This document shows positions 2,727-62,182 of a stretch of 64,000 nt of DNA, in pieces (the first letter of the stretch is position 1; each line of letters starts with the position of its first letter). The notes below the pieces were generated by a model. It did not search any database and had not been told where the DNA came from. It saw nothing but the letters and a program-made list of their open reading frames with translations. The position numbers were made by a program, and so were the translations under genes. The DNA is from Octopus vulgaris. Lineage: Eukaryota. Where the stretch lies: assembly GCA_951406725.2 (NCBI GenBank), contig OX597820.1, positions 55,986,001 through 56,050,000 on the forward strand. Direction: 5' to 3'.

Positions 2727-2948
2727 CCCTTTTCTATTCAGGTTATTTTATCAAATGTAATGTTTGTTTATTTATATTGCTTTGAATTAATCATTCATTA
2801 TCTTGTAGCTTTGAGATTTCAATGATGTGTTTATTTTTAGTGTTAGAATGACATTGTAGGGTTGAGGTGAGAAACCAGATCTGGTCAGGTTCAACATAAA
2901 ACAAGTTTAATATTTTGGCATGATATGGCCAGTTTGAATGCTAAAGGG
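2727..2948. mobile_element. piggyBac-type MITE, family 1
   Basis: TTAA(2723-2726)|CCCTTT...CTAAAGGG|TTAA(2949-2952). Related copies at 4187-4337, ~11846-11907 (fragment), 19061-19277 and 34496-~34700. Confidence 0.8.
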
Positions 2949-3583
2949 TTAATTAATTAACAAATGAAAATTATTTTTAAATAACTGTAAACCTATAAAC
3001 TGTATATATTTTCAGACACTGCTTTGAGTAGTTGTATTTAGCAAAATATATTACCATTACTAGCATCTAACATTGGAATGATTTGATTGGGCATGGCTGT
3101 TTGGGTCTTGGTGATTTGGCATGGCTAAGTGGACATTGAACCTGTTTTGGTGACATTGCATTTTGGAGACAAATATACACACATGTACATATGCACAGAA
3201 ATATATACATACAGAGAGAGAGAGAGAGAGGGATTACAATTTATTAATTGAACATGATTGACATAAACACAGAAATATGTTCACACAGATAAACAGGAAG
3301 AGAGAGAGAGAGAGAGTGGGGAGGAAAGGAGAAAACGAGGGAGAGAGAAACATTAAAGCATCTGATGTCAAACAAGTTAGCATTGAATCACTGAAGCCAA
3401 ATAGGAACTTCAAAACAGCTGAACCAAAACATTTTATACCCACATCTAACATTCAAATAAACTTGTCCACCAAACTGAAAATAGGTTTTAGTTGTTTAGA
3501 CACAAGTATGTCCTGGCAGGGCAGACTTATGATGAAAAGAGTTCCAACCACAGCCATTCAGTACTTTTGTATATCTAAAACTA

Positions 3584-4150
3584 TTGGGTTGTTCGGAAAG
3601 TTCATGCCGATTTATAGTATCTTACCTTTCAACTTATTTTAGAACATGGTTGAGTCCATAAAATAGGATTTGACTACACCTCCATTTAGAGTACAGTTTA
3701 AGCTATCTTTTCGTGGAAGAAGGTTTACGTTCCTATAACCTGTGTTAATTCTGTAACCCTTTAAAATGGAAGATAAGAAAGTTCATTTTCAGCACTTGAT
3801 GTTTTGAGAACTAGACAAAAATTGCTGCAGCTTGGCTGGGGTGTGTTACCCCACCCTCCATATTCACCAGATATTGCTCCTTCGTCTTTCCACTTATTCA
3901 GGTCTCTGCAGAATAGTCTTAATGGTAAAAATTTCAATTCCTTGGATGACATAAAAAGATACCTTGATGAATTCTTTGCCATGAAACCACCTCAATCCTG
4001 GGAAGTGGGTATTTTCAAGTTAAAGGAAAGCTGGAGATGCATTGTGCAACAAAATGGTTCATATTTGGTTGATTAAAAAATGTAATGGCAAGTATTTATT
4101 GACCTTTTTCTTTCCTTTAAAAATTGGCACAAACTTTCTGGACAACCCAA
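3584..4150 (+). mobile_element. internally deleted mariner transposon
   Basis: TA flanks and 30-bp TIRs TTGGGTTGTTCGGAAAGTTCATGCCGATTT / AAATTGGCACAAACTTTCTGGACAACCCAA (25/30 match). N-terminal stub MEDKKVHFQHLMF* at 3766 is joined out of frame to the C-terminal part with LPHPPYSPDIAPSSFHLF (ORF 3804-4076). Confidence 0.93.
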
Positions 4151-14888: not shown

Positions 14889-14934
<46 letters not shown>

Positions 14935-15100
14935 TACGATGGGCTTCTTTCAGTTTCGGTCTACCAAATCTACTCACAAGGCTTTGGTCGGCCCGAGGCT
15001 ATAGTAGAAGACACTTGCCCAAGGTGCCATGCAGTGGGACTGAACCCGGAACCATGTGGTTTGTAAGCAAGCCACTTACCACACAGCCCCTCCTATGCCT
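14471..15100 (-). mobile_element. SINE family A with an RTE-tail fragment (14697-14891) nested in its internal microsatellite
   Basis: 3' half at 14471-14690 and 5' half at 14935-15100. A (CAT)n-led RTE 3' fragment and (TA)n lie between them. Confidence 0.85.
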
Positions 15101-16311
15101 ATACTGTATAGGACTTTACAGTTTCATTGCTCACAATTTAATAAAAAATCCTCAATATAAAACCAGAATTTAATCAAATAGACAAATTATATTTTGCACT
15201 ACTCAAAAAAAAAAAAAAATGAAAAATCTAAAAAAAAAATCTAGTGGTGAGATTAGTTAGTATTCTAGTCAGAAGAAATCATTAAATAAAACATTGCAAA
15301 TACAGTGAAAATATAAATAAAATGGGCCATGTTGTATTGGTAAAGTAGTAGAATTATACATAAAAAACATTAGTAAAATATAGGATAAAAAAATTCTGGT
15401 AGTGAAGATCTGATTCATTACTTAGTATGTGACATCAGGTTGTGAGTGAGTGAGTTTTGTAGGTGCTTCTGTCATGTATTTATTTGTATATCTGGTTAGC
15501 TAGCCAGCTAGCTAGCTAGTTAACTCCCCACCACTCACTCTTTCTCTTTCAACCTTATGTAAATGTGTATTTTTTTTGTTGATATATGCTTCCAATTGGT
15601 ATAAAGGCTGATTGGTCGACAAGTGTCAATTAATTAGAATAGTTTTTGTTGCTACTAACTTTTCCTCAGCGTCTCAAATGTGTTTTTATGTTGGTCAATA
15701 TTTATTTCATGAATTTAAGTGGGTACTTCTTCCTGAGAGGGAGCATGTGATTATATCACACACACACACAGAGTCATATGTACACTTATCCTCACACAGA
15801 AGTAGAAGCACACATTCAAACATACATATAAACAACCTCAAACATACACTCCTCATATAACAATAAAGTCCAGAAAAAATTAGGTTGACGAATATGAAGA
15901 GAGATTATTCTGTTGGTTTAAAGAAGAGAAGTTTGTGTCTATAAACTTTCACATCCTCATTGAATGGTCAGATAGATAAATATAGCTTATCACGAGGGAT
16001 TCAGTTGATGTTTAGCTGAAATTTCTGTATGGTGGTATTTCAAATGGAAATATAAGCAGAAATGAGAATCCCAGAGAGAAGCAATTCAGGGAATGAAGAA
16101 TTAGAAGAGTTGGGGAGAATAAAGCAATGGTCTATGAAGAAAGAAAAAATCTATGCATTTCATTACTTCATAAAATGTTAAATTAATTGATATACCTCAG
16201 GTTATGTTATGCTGTTGGTTTTTAAAAAGAATGAAATAGTGGTATATAATTACCACTAGCAAGAAATTAATTTTAAAAACTCCATAAGTAAGCAATAATA
16301 ACAACAATATA

Positions 16312-16574: not shown

Positions 16575-17532
16575 CTATATATAAACGGCAGTTTGTCTGT
16601 GTGTCTGTCAGGTTGTACCCTCACCCTGACCACGGCTTTCAACCAATTCTGATGAAACTTGACACACACATAGCCCAATGTCATAATTCAAAACTAACGC
16701 AGCGAAAATTTTGAAAAGTCCCCCCAGTTCTGAAAAAAAATCGATAAATTTGACATGGGTTGAGAATCTAAGCTTTTTATATGCAACACATTTTCTACAG
16801 ACTGTCTAGGGGACGCAACTCGACCTTTTTAACTCTCGGAATACGTGGGGTAAGTATCCCAAAATGTATAACAATGTACAAAAATGGCAAAAAAGCGGGC
16901 AGCAATGTGAGTGACAACAACGAAAAAGTCAAAAGTGACCAAACTGAACAAACAAATGGAAAAGGTTTTTTGGTGCACACGACAAAAGTGGTTTATAATA
17001 AACCAAGAGTTTGCAAGTAGCGTCCGAGGACCCTTAGGGTACGTTAAAAATTTAAGGTAAAACGTTTGGAGTGGTAGTTACAAAGAAAGTGTAAACAAAA
17101 AAAGTATTCGAATAACTTGCGGCTGCAGCAGCTATTAGCAGAAGTAAAGTCTCGAATGTAATTTCTTCCTGGTAGGAATTGGTTCGGTTGAATTATCGAT
17201 AGCTGTTTGATAGTTATTTGGGAGTGAAGAAAAAACATTGCAACCTACACATGCGCCTTCGTTCCCTAGAGGGAAAGGACTAGATTGGGATTAGTCGTTG
17301 CCTACTAGGGGCTCTTACATACCCGGGCAACGCCGGGCTATGCTGCTAGTATATATATATATACACATATATATGACAGGCTTCTTTCAGATTCCGTCTA
17401 CCAAATCCACTCACAAGGCTTTGGTCGGCCCGAGGCTACAGTAGAAGATACTTGCCCAAGGTGCCACACAGTGGGACTGAACCCAGAACCATGTGGTTCG
17501 TAAGCAAGCTACTTACCACACAGCCACTCCTA
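16342..17532 (-). mobile_element. SINE family A split by a Helitron-like insertion
   Basis: 3' half at 16342-16550 and 5' half at 17372-17532 flank the insertion at 16574-17349. Confidence 0.85.
16574..17349 (+). mobile_element. non-autonomous Helitron-like element
   Basis: A|TC 5' end, 3' hairpin CCCGGGCAACGCCGGG (17322-17337), then CTAG|T. No TSD; inserted in (TA)n. Confidence 0.85.
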
Positions 17533-17540
17533 CATACATT

Positions 17541-17614
<74 letters not shown>

Positions 17615-21438: not shown

Positions 21439-21877
21439 CATCATCATCGTTTAACATCTGTTTTCCATGTTAGCATGGGTTGGATGGTTCGACTGGGGTC
21501 TGGGAAGCTAGGAGGCTGCTCCAGTCTGATCTGGAAGAGTTTCTACAGCTGGATGCCCTTCCTAACACCAACCACTCTGTGAGTGTAGTGGACGCTTTTT
21601 ACATGCCACTGGCGCAGGGGCCAGAGGAGGCTGGCAACAGCCATGATTGGTTGGTGATTTTTATGTGCCACTGGCATGGAAGCCAGCCAAGGCGGCGCTG
21701 GCATCGGCCACGTTTGGAGGGTGCTTTTTACATGCCTCCAGCACGGGTATCACAACTGTATATATGTGCGTGTGTATTTATATGCATATATATGTATATA
21801 ATGTATACATATATATATATATTATTATTGGTGAATTGAAGAAATGGAGCTGAATGAAGATTGAACAGAAATCGTTT

Positions 21878-21970
21878 TATTTCATTCTACACGTGTTTTG
21901 AAAGGCACAATTTACCAAAATCTGATTGAATAATGAGACCATATTGTGTCTTTCTCTTCAGGAAGAAATA
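21878..21970 (-). ncRNA. hammerhead ribozyme copy with a core mutation (GAAA to AAAA, G12A)
   Basis: Mirror of 22879-22971. T at 21899 instead of C removes the conserved G12. Confidence 0.7.
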
Positions 21971-22878
21971 GGAAATCCGTTGGAAAAAACAAAAACAGAA
22001 CAGAGGCGGAGCAAAACAAATCGAACTAGGCTCCTAAGAGCCCATGGCAAAACTGTTTATCAGTGTATGCTGAGAACCGGTGGTTGAAGATTTTAACGGG
22101 TCAGGCAGCGGTCATTCCTGTGGGTGAGGGTGTGTAGATGTTCTTTGTGACCGAGAATAAAGTTCTGACTATTTAAGGAATATTGGATGTTTTATAAGGG
22201 GCGAGAAAAAATCTACTTAGAGACATGTGTGTGTTTACTGTTCTATATATGTGTGCTGGCGCAGGTTGGCAAGACCTCCGTCAAGGGGTAGAAAACATTT
22301 TTTGTGTTCTGAAATAGCCTTTAAGATAATTACGATTAACCACTGCAAGGGGAATTACTCCTGTAAGATAAACGGGGCTTTGTTTTTTGACGAAGGGGGG
22401 TTTCCTTGACAAGGCAGGTTCAGACGAACACACGCACACATAAAACATAATTTTTTTCTGCCACCCAACGGTTCTTACTGCAGTAGCCATTGTGTAGAGC
22501 GGCTTAACCACTGACAGCCGAACGATCAAACGCACACACGTACACAAAAAATGTTTTCTACCCCTTGACGGAGGTCTTGCCAACCTGCGCCAGCACACAT
22601 ATATAGAACAGTAAACACACACATGTCTCTAAGTAGATTTTTTCTCGCCCCTTATAAAACATCCAATATTCCTTAAATAGTCAGAACTTTATTCTCGGTC
22701 ACAAAGAACATCTACACACCCTCACCCACAGGAATGACCGCTGCCTGACCCGTTAAAATCGTCAACCACCGGTTCTCAGCATACACTGATAAACAGTTTT
22801 GCCATGGGCTCTTAGGAGCCTAGTTCGATTTGTTTTGCTCCGCCTCTGTTCTGTTTTTGTTTTTTCCAACGGATTTCC

Positions 22879-22971
22879 TATTTCTTCCTGAAGAGAAAGA
22901 CACAATATGGTCTCATTATTCAATCGGATTTTGGTAAATTGTGCCTTTCGAAACACGTGTAGAATGAAATA
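22879..22971 (+). ncRNA. minimal type-I hammerhead ribozyme with intact core
   Basis: TATTTCTTC (stem I), CTGAAGA (22888-22894), GAAAGACACAAT/ATTGTGCCTTTC (stem II, 11/12 bp), GAAA (22950-22953), palindromic CACGTG stem III, TA, GAATGAAATA (stem I'). Predicted cut after A22961 (GUA). AATAAA overlaps at 22968-22973. Confidence 0.82.
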
Positions 22972-23180
22972 AAACGATTTCTGTTCACTCTTCATTCAGC
23001 TCCATTTCTTCAATTCACCAATAATATTTTAATTTCAATTATCCGCACCAACGCGCGGTTGCAACACCATATGGTTGTACCTCCAACCGTGCTGTCTTTT
23101 GCTGTGATTTTTGCTACCAAGGTATCGGTTAAACTTTTGAATAATCTGCTACAAGATTATTCATCTTTCTATTTCACATA

Positions 23181-23215
<35 letters not shown>

Positions 23216-24036
23216 TGCACATACTTACATATAAGTACATACACATATATATATTCATATATACAAATGTGTGTGTGTATGTTCACACACACACACATGC
23301 ATACATACACACACACACACACACACACCTTATTTTGTAAATGGTTAACAGCCTTTGTTTCACAGAATAAATTTTTAATAAACTTTATCTCATTAAAACC
23401 CTAGAATTTTTTGCATGAAACCCTGGAATTTTGATCAATTAAAAGACCTTCAAGACATTGTCCCAGCATGGCCACATTGCAATGGCTGAAACAAGTAAAA
23501 GATGTATCCAAACTATCCAATATAGTTTATAGGTGCAGGAGTGGTTGTGTGGTAAGTAGCTTGCTTACGAACCACATGGTTCTAGGTCCAGTCCCACTGC
23601 ATGGCACCTTGGGCAAGTGTCTTCTACTATGGCCTCAGGCTGACCAAAGCCTTGTGAGTGGATTTGGTAGACAGAAACTGAAAGAAGCCCGTCGTATATG
23701 TATATATATATATACATATATATATGACTAAAGGCGATGCCCCAGCATGGCCACAGTCAAATGACTGAAACAAGTAAAAGATTAAAGAGAGAATATAGAG
23801 ATGCTATGTTACCAGTATGGCTGAGTAATTAGTTTGGTTCACAACCATAAGACTTCAGTTTGATCCTGCTGTGTAATATTTTGAGCAAGTGTATTTGCTA
23901 TAGCATCAGACCAACCCAAATGAATTTGAGTATACAGAAAGAAACTAGATAGAAGCCCATCAGATGGACAGCACTTGCAATTCAAAGGTCTAGCTTTGTC
24001 ATGCTTGCGTCAAGATGGTTTTGTTTGAGAATTATA

Positions 24037-24950: not shown

Positions 24951-26700
24951 ATGAGTGGCAGATCTGCAATATTGAGGCCCTGAAGCTTAAAATGTCATGG
25001 GGGCCCCCTTTACAACCAGCAACAGTAGGGTAACACCAACAAGAGTCAAATAATTTTTGTGCCCTTGCAAGGAACTCTAGCTTCAGGCCTTGATAGCCCA
25101 AAGGATGGAGTTGTGATGTGGAGTCCTTAAAAATGAGCCTGAAAGTGAGCCTTCTTTCCACCAGAAACGAGGTGTGGGTAATCACCGATATCTTTGTCAA
25201 TCTGGTTGTTTAATGGCAGATCACTACAAATATTTTTCAGGCTATGCCTTATATTTTTAGAGTTATGAGGGTTGAACATTAGGAGAGCATTATATACATG
25301 CATGATGCATCATTAAGATACATATGAAAATTACAAAATACTCCTTTTCCTGTTTTTTTTGTAGCAACAATTTTGTCATATGACAGCTTCCTTGTAATGT
25401 CATTTTCCAGAGACAATATGCACAAGGAATTTAAGTGCTCTTCAGTCATGGTAGACCGAAATTTATTCTTTACGGAGGAAAGTTTTGAGGAACTCCTTTC
25501 TGCTTCACAACTCATGATAGGCATTGTCAAGTACAGCTTATGTGCAGTGGTAATATTAGGGGACACTTCAATTAATTGTTGCTCATAAATAAGCTGAACA
25601 ACTGTGCAATGCATTTTAGATGGTGTGTTTCCTTCTGTGTTCTGGGATTTTGTAAGGTGTAAATACTCTTTGAATTGATAACACTCATTTATTAATTTGT
25701 GGTCAATATTGTCTTTGTAATGCGATATTATAAGTTTGATACGATTCTCACCAAATTCTGATTTGTTCATCAATTCTGAGAGAAGCTTGAATCATTTCGC
25801 AATCTGCTCATATGGGTCCATCTTGCTTAACTGGGTTATCAAGCAGTCATAGACTTGATTTAGAACTTCTATCCTAAGTTTTTCGGCCCCTTTCAAAGAA
25901 GCCCGATCATTTGTCCCATCTGCAAATTTCTTTGTAACAATGCGTTTGGAAACATCAGAATAATTTGAGAAGATATATTCACATAAACCTTTTGCTACTG
26001 ATTCATAGTGTGCATCCCTGTTGGATGGATTTTCTTGTAGTTCTTTAACAAATGAAAGCAAAGATGCTAGCAGAAGGTAACCTACAAATACATCAGAACC
26101 AAGGGTTTGGAGTTTCTTACATGTTTTATTAAAACACTCCATAACTTCTTCACAAACAACTGTTAAAACAGCATATTCTAATTTTACCAACTTGTGGTAT
26201 AAGTTCTTTGCATCTCGCTCACATTCAGGCTTCTCTTCTGAGTCTTCAAACATATGTTTGAGAATTTGTAAAATATTCCTATATCCATTTTTAATTGCCT
26301 GGACAGCTTCAAAGTGTGCAGACCATCTAGTTACACTTAAGCTCTTTAGAGAAAAGGCTAGATTGCCCTGTGTGTTCAAAAGACCCTTCTTCGAGGAGAT
26401 TCAGAGGTTAACAATAGGAACTCTGTAAAAGTTCCTATTGTTAACTTCTGTAACAATAGGAACCTTGAAAATAAAGATTCAAGGAGCTGCCCTTCCTCAC
26501 TTTGACTAATCTGTTAAATAACAACAGTTACTCAATAAGTCAAAGGAGAGGAAGCAGTGCTCATAACCTTTGCAGGATCTTCCATTTTACATCTGAACTA
26601 TTCAGTCAATTGTTTCTAAGTCACTGCTATTTGACAACTTCTTTCAACTATTAAGCCAGTAGGGGTCCAGGGGTTTGCTCTGCTCTTTCTACCTTCATCT
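24951..26700 (-). mobile_element. decayed hAT-superfamily transposon (ZMYM1-like transposase pseudogene)
   Basis: ORFs 25792-26379 (SLSVTRWS) and 25279-25773 (LTMPIMSCEAERSSSKL..KNKFRSTMTEEHLNSLCILSLE, hAT dimerisation domain) are broken by a stop or frameshift. Outer boundaries are approximate. Confidence 0.85.
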
Positions 26701-39354: not shown

Positions 39355-40510
39355 TGTACCACACAAAAAGCACCAGTATTGCATACATGTACCACACAAA
39401 AAGCACCAGTGTTGCACACATGTACCACACAAAAAGCACCAGTGTTGCACACATGTACCACACAAAGAGCACCAGTGTTGCATACATGTACCACACAAAA
39501 AGCACCAGTGTTGCATACATGTACCACACAAAAAGCACCAGTGTTGCATACATGTACCACACAAAAAGCACCAGTGTTGCATATATGTACCACACAAAAA
39601 GCGCCAGTGTTGCATACATGTACCACACAAAAAGCACCAGTGTTGCATACATGTACCAGATAAAAAGCGCCAGTGTTGCATACATGTACCACACAAAAAG
39701 TGCCAGTGTTGCATACATGTACTACACAAAAAGCACCAGAATTGCATACATGTACCACACAAAAAGCACCAGTGTTGCATACATGTACCACACAAAAAGC
39801 ACCAGTGTTGCACACATGTACCACACAAAGAGCACCAGTGTTGCATACATGTACCACACAAAAAGTACCAGTGTTGCATACATGTACCACACAAAAAGCG
39901 CCAGTGTTGCATACATGTACCACACAAAAAGCACCAGTGTTGCATACATGTACCACACAAAAAGCACCAGTGTTGCATACACGTACCACACAAAAAGCAC
40001 GAGTATTGCATACATGTACCAGATAAAAAGCGCCAGTGTTGCATACATGTACCACACAAAAAGCGCCAGTGTTGCATACATGTACTACACAAAAAGCACC
40101 AGAATTGCATACATGTACCACACAAAAAGCACCAGTGTTGCATACATGTACCACACAAAAAGCACCAGTGTTGCATACATGTACCACACAAAAAGTGCCA
40201 GTGTTGCATACATGTACCACACAAAAAGCGCCAGTGCTGCATACATGTACCACACAAAAAGCGCCAGAATTGCATACATGTACCACACAAAAAGCAGCAG
40301 TGTTGCATACATGTACCACACAAAAAGTGCCAGTGTTGCATACATGTACCACAAATAAAGTGCCAGTGTTGCATACATGTACCACACAAAAATCACCAGT
40401 GTTGCATACATGTAACACACAAAAAGCACCAGTGTTGCATACATGTACCACACAAAAAGCGCCAGTGTTGCATACATGTACCACACAAAAAGCACCAGTG
40501 TTGCATACTT
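39355..40510. repeat. 33-bp minisatellite, about 35 units
   Basis: Unit CATGTACCACACAAAAAGCACCAGTGTTGCATA. It runs into an RTE-type 3' tail at 40530-40690. Confidence 0.97.
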
Positions 40511-41104
40511 GCACCTATACCAGTGCTGCATGTAAAACACATCCAGGACACTCTTAAGTGGTCGGCATCAAGAAGGGCATCCAGCTGTAGAAACCATGCT
40601 ACAACAGAATATTGGAGTCTGGACATCTCCCAGCTATCCAGTTCCATGTCAAACTATCTAACCCATACCAGCATGGAAAGTGGATAGTAAACAAAGCAGC
40701 TATGAGCCCACAAAATTAGGGATGCTCAGTTGGAGACAGTTGCAGGAGATGAGCCTGTGTTTCTTCGTTATATGTATAAAGAAGGAATAACACTATATGA
40801 TGGCCAATGTTATTTCTTCTTTAAGTTTAAGTTACAAAGCTGAATAAATGGAGAGGAGTCAGAACAAGATGCAATCTCCAAGTGGTTTAAATCACAAGTC
40901 TCCCATATCCAGGTGGCTAGACCGTGTCAGCAGAAGGGACCTGGATACAGCCTGTCCCCCTTAGAATATAAGGAGATAAGGGCTGAAACACTTGCCTAAG
41001 GGAGTTTCTTCTCAAAAAGACCTTCAGCTGTTTAGCCCTCTGGAGTTTCTTACCACTATATGTGTGTATATATAGCAACCAATTATGCTCACACACACAT
41101 ATAG

Positions 41105-56419: not shown

Positions 56420-56787
56420 TTAATCATGTTAATATGTTATCTTTCTTCTGACGAATCTTTGTTTCCACTTGATTGGCTGACAGATGATCACAAGCATAAT
56501 TTTTGACATTCATGATTCTTTCTTCAGTGAGTGTACTGATACACATAATTAGAATATTTCCCTCTTTTCTTGATGGATGCTTGTGTAGTTTTTGGTAGAT
56601 TTTCAAATTTCAGAACATCTATTTTGTTGATGCAAACTAAGATAGGTATATATAAAAGTTTAATGCTTTCAAATAAGGCAATCTGTTCATCAGTTGTTTG
56701 GTTACATTGTTCAGAGATACCCATAATATACAGTACTGCATCTTTTAAATGAGCCAATGCTGTAATGGCCTGCATTTCAATACTGTT

Positions 56788-57021
56788 TCTTATTTCTTTA
56801 CTACCCACAAGGGGCTATAAACAGAGGGGACAAACAAGGACAAACAAACGGATTAAGTCGATTACATTGACCCCAGTACATAACTGGTACTTATTTAATC
56901 AACTCCGAAAGGATGAAAGGCAAAGTTGACCTCGGTGGAATTTGAACTCAGAACGTAGCAGCAGAAGAAATACCGCCAAGCATTTCACCTGGCGTGCTCG
57001 CATTTCTGCCAGCTCGCCGCC
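56788..57021 (-). mobile_element. SINE family B inserted in the NOG1 pseudogene
   Basis: TSD TCAATA(C/G)TGTT at 56777-56787 and 57022-57032. Confidence 0.88.
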
Positions 57022-61331: not shown

Positions 61332-61366
<35 letters not shown>

Positions 61367-61543
61367 CATATACACATATACAACGAGCTTCTTTTAGTTT
61401 CCGTCTACCAAATTCACTCACAAGGCTTTGGTTGGCTCAAGGCTATAGTAGAAGACACTTGCCCAAGGAGCCATGGAGTGGGACTGAACCCGGAACCATG
61501 TGGTTGGTAAGCAATCTACTTACCACACAGCCACTCCTGCGCC
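61127..61543 (-). mobile_element. SINE family A, full length
   Basis: Reverse complement of 10104-10490. Other copies at 23531-23790(+), 33654-33998(-), 47855-48320(-), 48604-48950(+). Confidence 0.88.
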
Positions 61544-62182
61544 TCTACAAATATTCTATAATTATAAACATAATTATAATTAGGGGTCAGCTAATTGCTT
61601 AACCATGCACCGAATTTAGAAATAGGAGTTAAAATACCTTTTCTGCTACCATATATATATATATATTTTTATATATATATAGGTGTAGGCATGCATGTGT
61701 ACTAAAAAGTTTGCTTCCCAACCACATGGTTCTGGTTTCAGTCCCACTGTGTGGTACCTTGGGCAGGTGTCTTCTACTATAACATCAGGGTGACCAAAGT
61801 CTTGTGAGTGGATTTGGTAAATGGAAACTGAAAGAAGCCCGTTGTGTATATATTACAAAAGGATGTTTTATAATACTATTCCACATATACAAAAACAACT
61901 ATACCAACAATCCAACACACCTCTATCATCAGCTGGCCCATGGATATCATTTTGGTTTCGACACCTGGGTAGTACCATTCAATCTGATGGTGTTGACAGT
62001 ACTAAAATAAGTGTTGTTTTGGAACAAACATACCAAAGAATTAACAACTTTCAAACACATTTACAAACACATTGAACTACTTTAGAACGGTATTTAAATC
62101 ATTAAAAGTCATTGTGTTGGCAACTGACCAAGCAGGTTCAGTTGTTTACAGTACTTGCAGCTCTAGTGCCATCCTTGTGTGC

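What the first reader, a model, noticed from the sequence alone, without database searches (positions are those of the whole stretch)
21823..23180. Young 1.2-kb fold-back (485-bp arms, ~99% identical) with one intact and one broken hammerhead
Seen: arms 21823-22307 and 22542-23026 differ at about 4 positions. One difference (21899) changes catalytic G12 to A in the minus-strand HHR, while the plus-strand HHR (22879-22971) is intact and overlaps an AATAAA. A 154-bp unique extension follows, with (TA)n on both sides and many CpGs retained. The spacer translates weakly like a GIY-YIG C-terminus (FKIITINHCKGNYSCKINGALFF), which is tentative. Inference: a recent 5'-truncated PLE insertion with an inverted pseudo-LTR. 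If transcribed it would form ~485 bp of dsRNA, a likely ADAR or Dicer substrate, competing with ribozyme folding.
Basis: partly seen in the sequence, partly recalled or inferred. Interest (0 to 1): 0.75.

Follow-up and report, generated by a model that had tools for sequence, protein, structure and literature searches.

The report
Twin-primed Penelope insertion with long tail
This mirror-image insert is one non-coding copy of an abundant Penelope-like jumping gene whose copies nearly always carry one long and one short end, which likely means the element copies its RNA from both cut DNA strands at two fixed spots; the broken ribozyme is likely just a chance mutation.

Summary
In detail: 485-bp arms, 4 mismatches, intact plus-strand hammerhead, G12A on the minus strand, (TA)n on both sides. 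It is a truncated, head-to-head copy of a Penelope-like element (PLE) with about 800 insertions in this genome. Full-length copies (3.66-kb unit) encode an 895-aa telomerase-like RT plus C-terminal GIY-YIG, closest to the Hydra clade but lacking its CxCX5C linker. Corrections: the spacer is 3' UTR, not endonuclease coding; G12A is a private CpG change (1 of 277 hammerheads); the copy is older than most of its peers; the '154-bp extension' is the PLE tail, four to five times the usual length. Family rule: two-ended insertions pair one tail end (A) with one tail-less end (B): 149 A+B, 0 A+A, 0 B+B. Inner junctions show microhomology, an excess of near-symmetric stops, and a hot spot with an extra G that may mark the RNA cap site. 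Best mechanism: priming from both target strands at two fixed RNA sites, probably on one RNA. The layout is published; this scan's notes already proposed twin priming for PLEs in other genomes. No read-level test of editing, cleavage or assembly was possible.

The parts
21808..21822 (.). left (TA)n target flank
   Evidence: sequence
21823..22307 (-). B arm: inverted copy of unit positions 3504 to 3018, ending outward at the family's tail-less end B
21878..21970 (-). hammerhead copy with G12A (21899), a CpG transition private to this locus
22054..22054 (-). inferred RNA start site (unit A3273) in the B arm, pointing outwards
   Evidence: hot spot of inner ends with extra G in other copies; inferred
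22307..22307 (.). inversion junction with 1-nt microhomology
   Evidence: L001/L033; WIN
22307..23179 (+). A arm: unit positions 2779 to 3657, ending at the family's tail end A
22308..22541 (+). spacer = family 3' UTR, starting 43 nt after the ORF stop codon; non-coding
22542..23026 (+). part of the A arm that mirrors the B arm
22795..22795 (+). inferred RNA start site (unit A3273) in the A arm, pointing outwards
   Evidence: inferred
22879..22971 (+). intact type I hammerhead with 2-bp stem III inside the palindrome ACACGUGU (dimer-type), predicted cut after A22961
   Evidence: dimer type by comparison with PMC4209133
23027..23179 (+). tail (about 150 nt between ends B and A); in tandem copies it runs on into the ORF leader
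23180..23201 (.). right (TA)n target flank
   Evidence: sequence

Best explanation
The locus is a non-coding, head-to-head insertion of a Hydra-like Penelope retroelement into a (TA)n run, likely made when both nicked target strands primed reverse transcription on the element's RNA, one at site A and one about 150 nt upstream at site B, after which the two cDNA ends were likely joined by microhomology. Shown: family identity, ORF, two fixed ends, strict A+B pairing, junction microhomology, TA flanks. Inferred: endonuclease cut in (TA)n; priming helped by the TA-like sequence at A and B; one RNA as template for both cDNAs, the A-primed polymerase displacing the B cDNA (A lies 3' of B and stays single-stranded); the inner hot spot as the capped 5' end of the RNA. 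The G12A change and the other three mismatches are later point mutations; the copy has no evident function.
For: Full-length copy L021: direct pLTR, 895-aa ORF from the first Met, unit 3657 bp; model matches telomerase RT best. Genome counts: 785 A ends by a strict pattern, 411 forward-strand B ends (reverse count inflated by overlapping matches). Pairing: 149 A+B, 0 A+A, 0 B+B among 209 clusters in 199 loci; in subsets not chosen as pairs: C1 0-128.5 Mb census 38 A+B of 53 clusters, B-anchored 32 of 41, 3' UTR query 23 of 40, none A+A or B+B. Ends are sharp: A at 3657 in 176 of 185, B at 3505 or 3509 in 145 of 170. Neither arm is a copy of the other: in 122 simple insertions B reaches further 5' in 52, A in 31, and 19 A arms do not reach B. 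Junction overlap mean 3.5 nt (88 of 122) against 0.7 by chance. Both arms stop within 30 nt of each other in 39 of 122 (10 expected, maximum 22 in 20,000 shuffles), 24 of 91 without the hot spot (4.8 expected), with both signs. 36 of 359 inner ends lie at 3268-3281; 9 of 11 arms that start exactly at A3273 carry a G where the family has C, 7 of these 9 being B arms. Arms agree at subfamily sites 1193 to 10. In vitro a Poseidon PLE cuts and extends both strands and starts at two internal sites that bound the tail (PMC11167929).
Against: All evidence is genomic anatomy; no reaction was run. 44 of the 149 A+B cases were fetched because coordinate lists already showed them paired. BLAST extension can inflate overlaps, and 34 of 122 junctions carry inserted bases instead. 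20 private variants are shared by both arms against 68 unshared (3 are alignment artefacts), which snap-back copying or arm-to-arm conversion would also give. A B arm is closest to its own A arm in only 11 of 61 cases (20 ties, 30 closer to another locus), so sequence does not prove one template. In about four of the nine cases the extra G could belong to the partner arm, and a stable hairpin (z -2.2) lies at the same hot spot. PAc starts at sites without homology to the cut DNA and shows no strand difference in start site, whereas A and B here are TA-like.
Confidence: 0.6

Rival explanations
1. Self-priming (snap-back): one cDNA folds back and is copied, the second strand stops or is cut at B, and asymmetric deletions at the palindrome centre give the unequal arms.
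For: Proposed for PLE inverted junctions in PMC3846280 and 'EN-mediated resolution' of the tail in PMC8557442. Excess of near-symmetric junctions; 20 private variants shared by both arms; snap-back-like templated inserts at some junctions (L013, L053).
Against: B reaches further 5' than A in 52 of 122, by kilobases in some; 19 A arms never reach B; 17 B-only insertions; B arms run off at the hot spot with the extra G more often than A arms; near-symmetric offsets have both signs, 14 against 20; two B arms read through the unit junction (L199, L211).
Confidence: 0.18
2. Twin priming on two separate RNA molecules held by an asymmetric protein dimer, one started at A and one at B.
For: PAc is predicted to dimerise and extends both strands; subfamily concordance of arms is also expected if one subfamily is active at a time.
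Against: Needs an extra rule to forbid A+A and B+B (0 of 149); does not predict that both arms stop at the same place outside hot spots (24 of 91 against 4.8).
Confidence: 0.15
3. The locus has been kept as a regulatory fold-back RNA (ADAR or Dicer substrate competing with ribozyme folding).
For: A read-through RNA would fold strongly (-956 kcal/mol); family sequence is present in contigs of four runs guessed to be RNA.
Against: The layout is the family's default product; the four mismatches look neutral, two per arm; no host exon evident in the window; no contig was seen to bridge this locus's junction.
Confidence: 0.03
4. Assembly artefact (fold-back read).
For: Long palindromes can arise from chimeric long reads (own knowledge); no long read could be checked.
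Against: The inverted arm ends exactly at the family's B site, the arms differ at four sites including two CpG transitions, and the 234-nt spacer is the family's own 3' UTR.
Confidence: 0.02

Closest known systems
Hydra clade of C-terminal EN+ PLEs (Craig et al. 2021, PMC8557442; section 11, passages, supplement files S1, S2 and protein rows seen)
   Same: DKT motif, no CCHH, CxxC and CxH around the conserved E and N, C-terminal GIY-YIG, hammerhead in the pLTR, (TA)n insertion; Penelope-13_HM has the same 5'-truncated inverted copy; motifs of Hydra-1_Obim and Hydra-2_Amil match by eye.
   Different: CxCX5C linker lost (GCSSRNKYS or GCRSRNEYS; none of the 25 variants printed, covering 78 of 85 copies, has it); RWL for RWK; about 190 extra, predicted disordered linker residues (895 aa against about 700); unit 3.66 kb against under 3 kb; hammerhead stem II loop much longer; sequence differs from Hydra-1_Obim.
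Inverted pLTR with one-sided tail: Pen2a_Av of Adineta vaga (PMC3846280, passages) and Fig. 2 legend of PMC8557442
   Same: Head-to-head inverted copy at the 5' end, tail on one end only, low-complexity N/S-rich linker insert.
   Different: Tail about 150 nt rather than 30-40; described there as optional, here counted as a strict one-A-one-B rule; no target duplication can be read in (TA)n.
Poseidon_Ac in vitro (PMC11167929, parts 1-2 of 4 read)
   Same: Two internal RT start sites bounding the tail; both target strands cut and extended; hammerhead not needed for insertion.
   Different: Other clade; start sites there are non-homologous to the target and lie inside the ORF; here they are TA-like and lie 5' of the ORF.
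LINE-1 twin priming (recalled, Ostertag and Kazazian 2001; not read here)
   Same: Second target strand primes internally; inverted 5' segment; microhomology at the inversion point.
   Different: Here both priming sites are fixed and the arms usually overlap (103 of 122), giving a palindrome rather than a plain inversion.

Membership tests
EN+ Penelope-like elements | Single ORF with telomerase-like RT | tested here: met
   895-aa ORF, FDIASFYPSI and YRDD motifs; seven best fold matches are TERT. Pfam and PDB sequence searches gave no RT hit.
EN+ Penelope-like elements | GIY-YIG endonuclease in the same ORF | tested here: met
   VYQC...YVGAS, R, E, N aligned with 15 relatives; well-folded domain 780-896. 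By motif and alignment; the fold search's listed hits were to the RT part only.
EN+ Penelope-like elements | pLTR from partial tandems; inverted 5'-truncated copy; tail | tested here: met
   26 read-through junctions; L021, L191; 149 head-to-head insertions
EN+ Penelope-like elements | Hammerhead motif in the pLTR | tested here: met
   core intact in 263 of 277 copies; no Rfam hit
EN+ Penelope-like elements | Hammerhead self-cleavage | not testable with these tools
   8 inner ends at the cut site against 2.8 expected, but a neighbouring 5-nt window has 9
Hydra clade | DKT in place of DKG | tested here: met
   SDKT at aa 121
Hydra clade | RWK motif | tested here: inconclusive
   RIRWL; relatives have RWK or RWR
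Hydra clade | No CCHH; CxxC and CxH around E and N | tested here: met
   CNLC..SE...NG...CPH
Hydra clade | CxCX5C linker motif | tested here: not met
   one Cys left; 15 relatives keep CNC..CP. Hence filed as Hydra-like, not as a member.
Hydra clade | Length under 3 kb (general, not strict) | tested here: not met
   unit 3657 bp
Hydra clade | Insertion into (TA)n | tested here: met
   183 of 185 A ends and 169 of 170 B ends; many were found by TA-containing patterns, their opposite ends were not
Hydra clade | RT phylogeny inside the clade | not tested
   published reference proteins were only compared by eye
DNA transposon / MITE | Fixed terminal inverted repeats with transposase | tested here: not met
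   arm lengths vary from under 30 nt to over 3 kb and the ORF is an RT

The most novel reading that the evidence does not exclude
PLE insertion is an ordered, single-RNA twin-priming reaction: the polymerase starts at B on one target strand, a second start at A displaces that cDNA, and both run to the same RNA end. This one rule would explain the one-sided tail, the inverted pLTR and the palindromes of the whole class; this family, with its 150-nt tail, recorded cap site and TA targeting without the linker zinc finger thought to confer it, is an unusually clear natural record of it.
Probability: 0.45. Interest if true: 0.7.

Novelty: new variant of a known kind. Interest (0 to 1): 0.42.

Why it matters
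How PLEs, the sister group of telomerase, build inverted pLTRs and tails is open: self-priming and endonuclease resolution were proposed in print. A 149:0:0 end pairing, shared stop points and a likely cap site give sharp predictions for an in vitro test. The family also questions the idea that the linker Cys motif directs (TA)n insertion, and with 15 of 23 full-length copies keeping an open ORF it seeds hundreds of palindromes in its host genome. The single locus itself is ordinary.

Tried and rejected
Spacer as GIY-YIG coding: rejected. Rfam scan: no hit. Pfam on the family protein and six relatives, and PDB by sequence profile: no relevant hit. Public runs were contigs only; no listed contig bridged junction 22307 or showed an empty site, which proves nothing either way; editing, start sites and small RNAs untestable. 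Inner ends at the hammerhead cut site as a sign of in vivo cleavage: inconclusive. A-to-I marks shared by both arms as a sign of one RNA: no enrichment, 4 A>G of 20. Closest-arm test for one template: not discriminating. Paired hairpins behind ends A and B (lead from note e1-8673755): both have CCGC...UGC but fold no better than shuffles, z 0.07 to 0.68. Target-site duplication: unreadable in (TA)n. Segments under 84% identity or 22 nt were dropped before the counts (two older relatives at 81-83% among them), as were duplicate loci.

Full report
Observation. The arms, the four mismatches, both hammerhead copies, the AATAAA, the TA flanks and the CpG richness are as described. Rfam reports nothing in the window; the ribozyme call rests on the complete core, a 13-column stem II with one mismatch, a 2-bp stem III and a bulged stem I. 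That fold (-9.1 kcal/mol) is not the minimum-energy fold (-14.9), and stem III lies in the palindrome ACACGUGU, the dimer-dependent type that PMC4209133 (passages) describes as weakly active alone.

Family. The window lies at G000:C7:55,986,001-56,050,000 in a 2.8-Gb genome. Spacer and pLTR queries gave 748 and 2,504 first-look candidates. Locus L021 is full length: 331-bp direct pLTR, an ORF of 895 aa from the first Met, 3' UTR and pLTR; the repeating unit is 3,657 bp with ATG at 49, stop at 2736 and hammerhead at 3366-3439. The window holds unit 2779-3657 forward and 3018-3504 inverted, so it is wholly non-coding and the spacer is 3' UTR. The protein has 398 relatives at E <= 1e-10 among 7,993 scored; its model (pLDDT 74) matches telomerase RT best. 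It carries DKT, CxxC and CxH and lacks CCHH, as the Hydra clade does (PMC8557442 section 11; supplement rows), but it has lost the CxCX5C linker and gained about 190 disordered residues. I therefore call it Hydra-like. It differs in sequence from Hydra-1_Obim. 15 of 23 full-length copies keep an ORF of 895-904 aa.

Two fixed ends. Copies end outward at A (3657; window 23179) or B (3505/3509; window 23027-23031), both TA-like and followed by (TA)n. The genome holds 785 strict A ends and 411 forward-strand B ends. On C1 0-128.5 Mb the lists gave 38 A and 38 B ends, 24 outward A+B pairs and no A+A or B+B within 8 kb; fetching all 52 places raised this to 38 A+B of 53 clusters, the rest one-ended or broken. 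Over 199 loci: 149 A+B, 32 A only, 17 B only, 11 other, no A+A, no B+B; 44 of the 149 were fetched as known pairs.

Junctions. In 122 two-segment insertions B reaches further 5' in 52, A in 31, and 39 stop within 30 nt of each other (10 expected); 19 A arms do not reach B. The excess persists without the hot spot (24 of 91, 4.8 expected). Overlap averages 3.5 nt in 88 junctions against 0.7 by chance; 34 have inserted bases. The window's junction has 1 nt. Inner ends pile up at 3268-3281 (36 of 359). Of 17 rows examined, 5 kept the family C and one was an internal variant; 9 of the other 11 have G before A3273. A copied cap leaves such a G (recalled from LINE-1 work), and Penelope has an internal promoter (PMC2377424, abstract), so I read A3273 (window 22795 and 22054) as the likely RNA start; a hairpin there is an alternative cause. 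Contigs of two runs guessed to be RNA hold another copy that begins at 22795.

Mechanism. Because neither arm can be copied from the other in most cases, both are best read as RNA-templated cDNAs primed from the two target strands, in line with the in vitro behaviour of Poseidon_Ac (PMC11167929, parts 1-2 of 4). One RNA explains the strict pairing and the shared stop points: after a start at B only the downstream A site stays free. Read-through of the unit junction (26 places; mostly A arms, two B arms) shows that templates can be longer than one unit. Against: 20 private variants shared by both arms and a non-discriminating closest-arm test leave snap-back with deletion (self-priming proposed in PMC3846280, passages) and a two-RNA dimer alive.

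This copy. Each arm carries two derived changes; both in the B arm are CpG G>A, one being G12A, seen in 1 of 277 hammerheads. Arm divergence ranks 46th of 61; 19 have identical arms; 19 of 122 have arms of 485 nt or more. If the octopus calibration quoted in PMC13282606 (passages; distance 0.09 = 25 My) applies, the age is about 1 My; the host is not given and that it is an octopus is my guess from genome size and repeats. No host exon was evident. A fold-back RNA would need read-through from outside; contigs could not test it.

Novelty. The layout is published, including for a Hydra element (Penelope-13_HM). [quoted passage not shown] PMC8969392 (passages) repeats the known layout. This scan's own notes on other genomes already propose twin priming; my reading preceded that look-up, and a sequence look-up found no note on this family. 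New here: the family, its 150-nt tail, the loss of the linker motif with TA targeting kept, the counts and the candidate cap site. Verdict: real, ordinary as a locus, a moderately useful family-level record of PLE insertion; interest 0.42.

Noticed in passing
window 56524-56814, minus strand: Fragment similar to nucleolar GTP-binding protein 1 (NOG1/GTPBP4), E 5e-16 against PDB chains; exon or pseudogene piece not determined.
   Followed up: partly
window 25279-26400, minus strand: Two open frames that read like a decayed hAT-type transposase (by eye; label recalled).
   Followed up: no
window 3777-4076, plus strand: Frame with HPPYSPDIAPS, like a mariner transposase remnant (label recalled).
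   Followed up: no
window 39355-40515: 35 copies of a 33-bp tandem unit, 93% alike, open in several frames.
   Followed up: no
window, e.g. 14891-15104, 17328-17541, 23521-23725, 61335-61548: Many copies of a SINE-like repeat of 200-250 nt in both orientations, next to TA runs.
   Followed up: no
L191-L192 (G000:C1:119,515,000-119,526,700): At least three full units of the family in head-to-tail tandem, suggesting a multimeric or circular template.
   Followed up: partly
L141:708-996 and L152:1172-1412: Older relatives of the pLTR at 81-83% identity that end at the same A or B positions.
   Followed up: no
L013, L053, L156, L175, L196 junctions: Short templated repeats at the inversion point, as from repeated priming attempts.
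   Followed up: no
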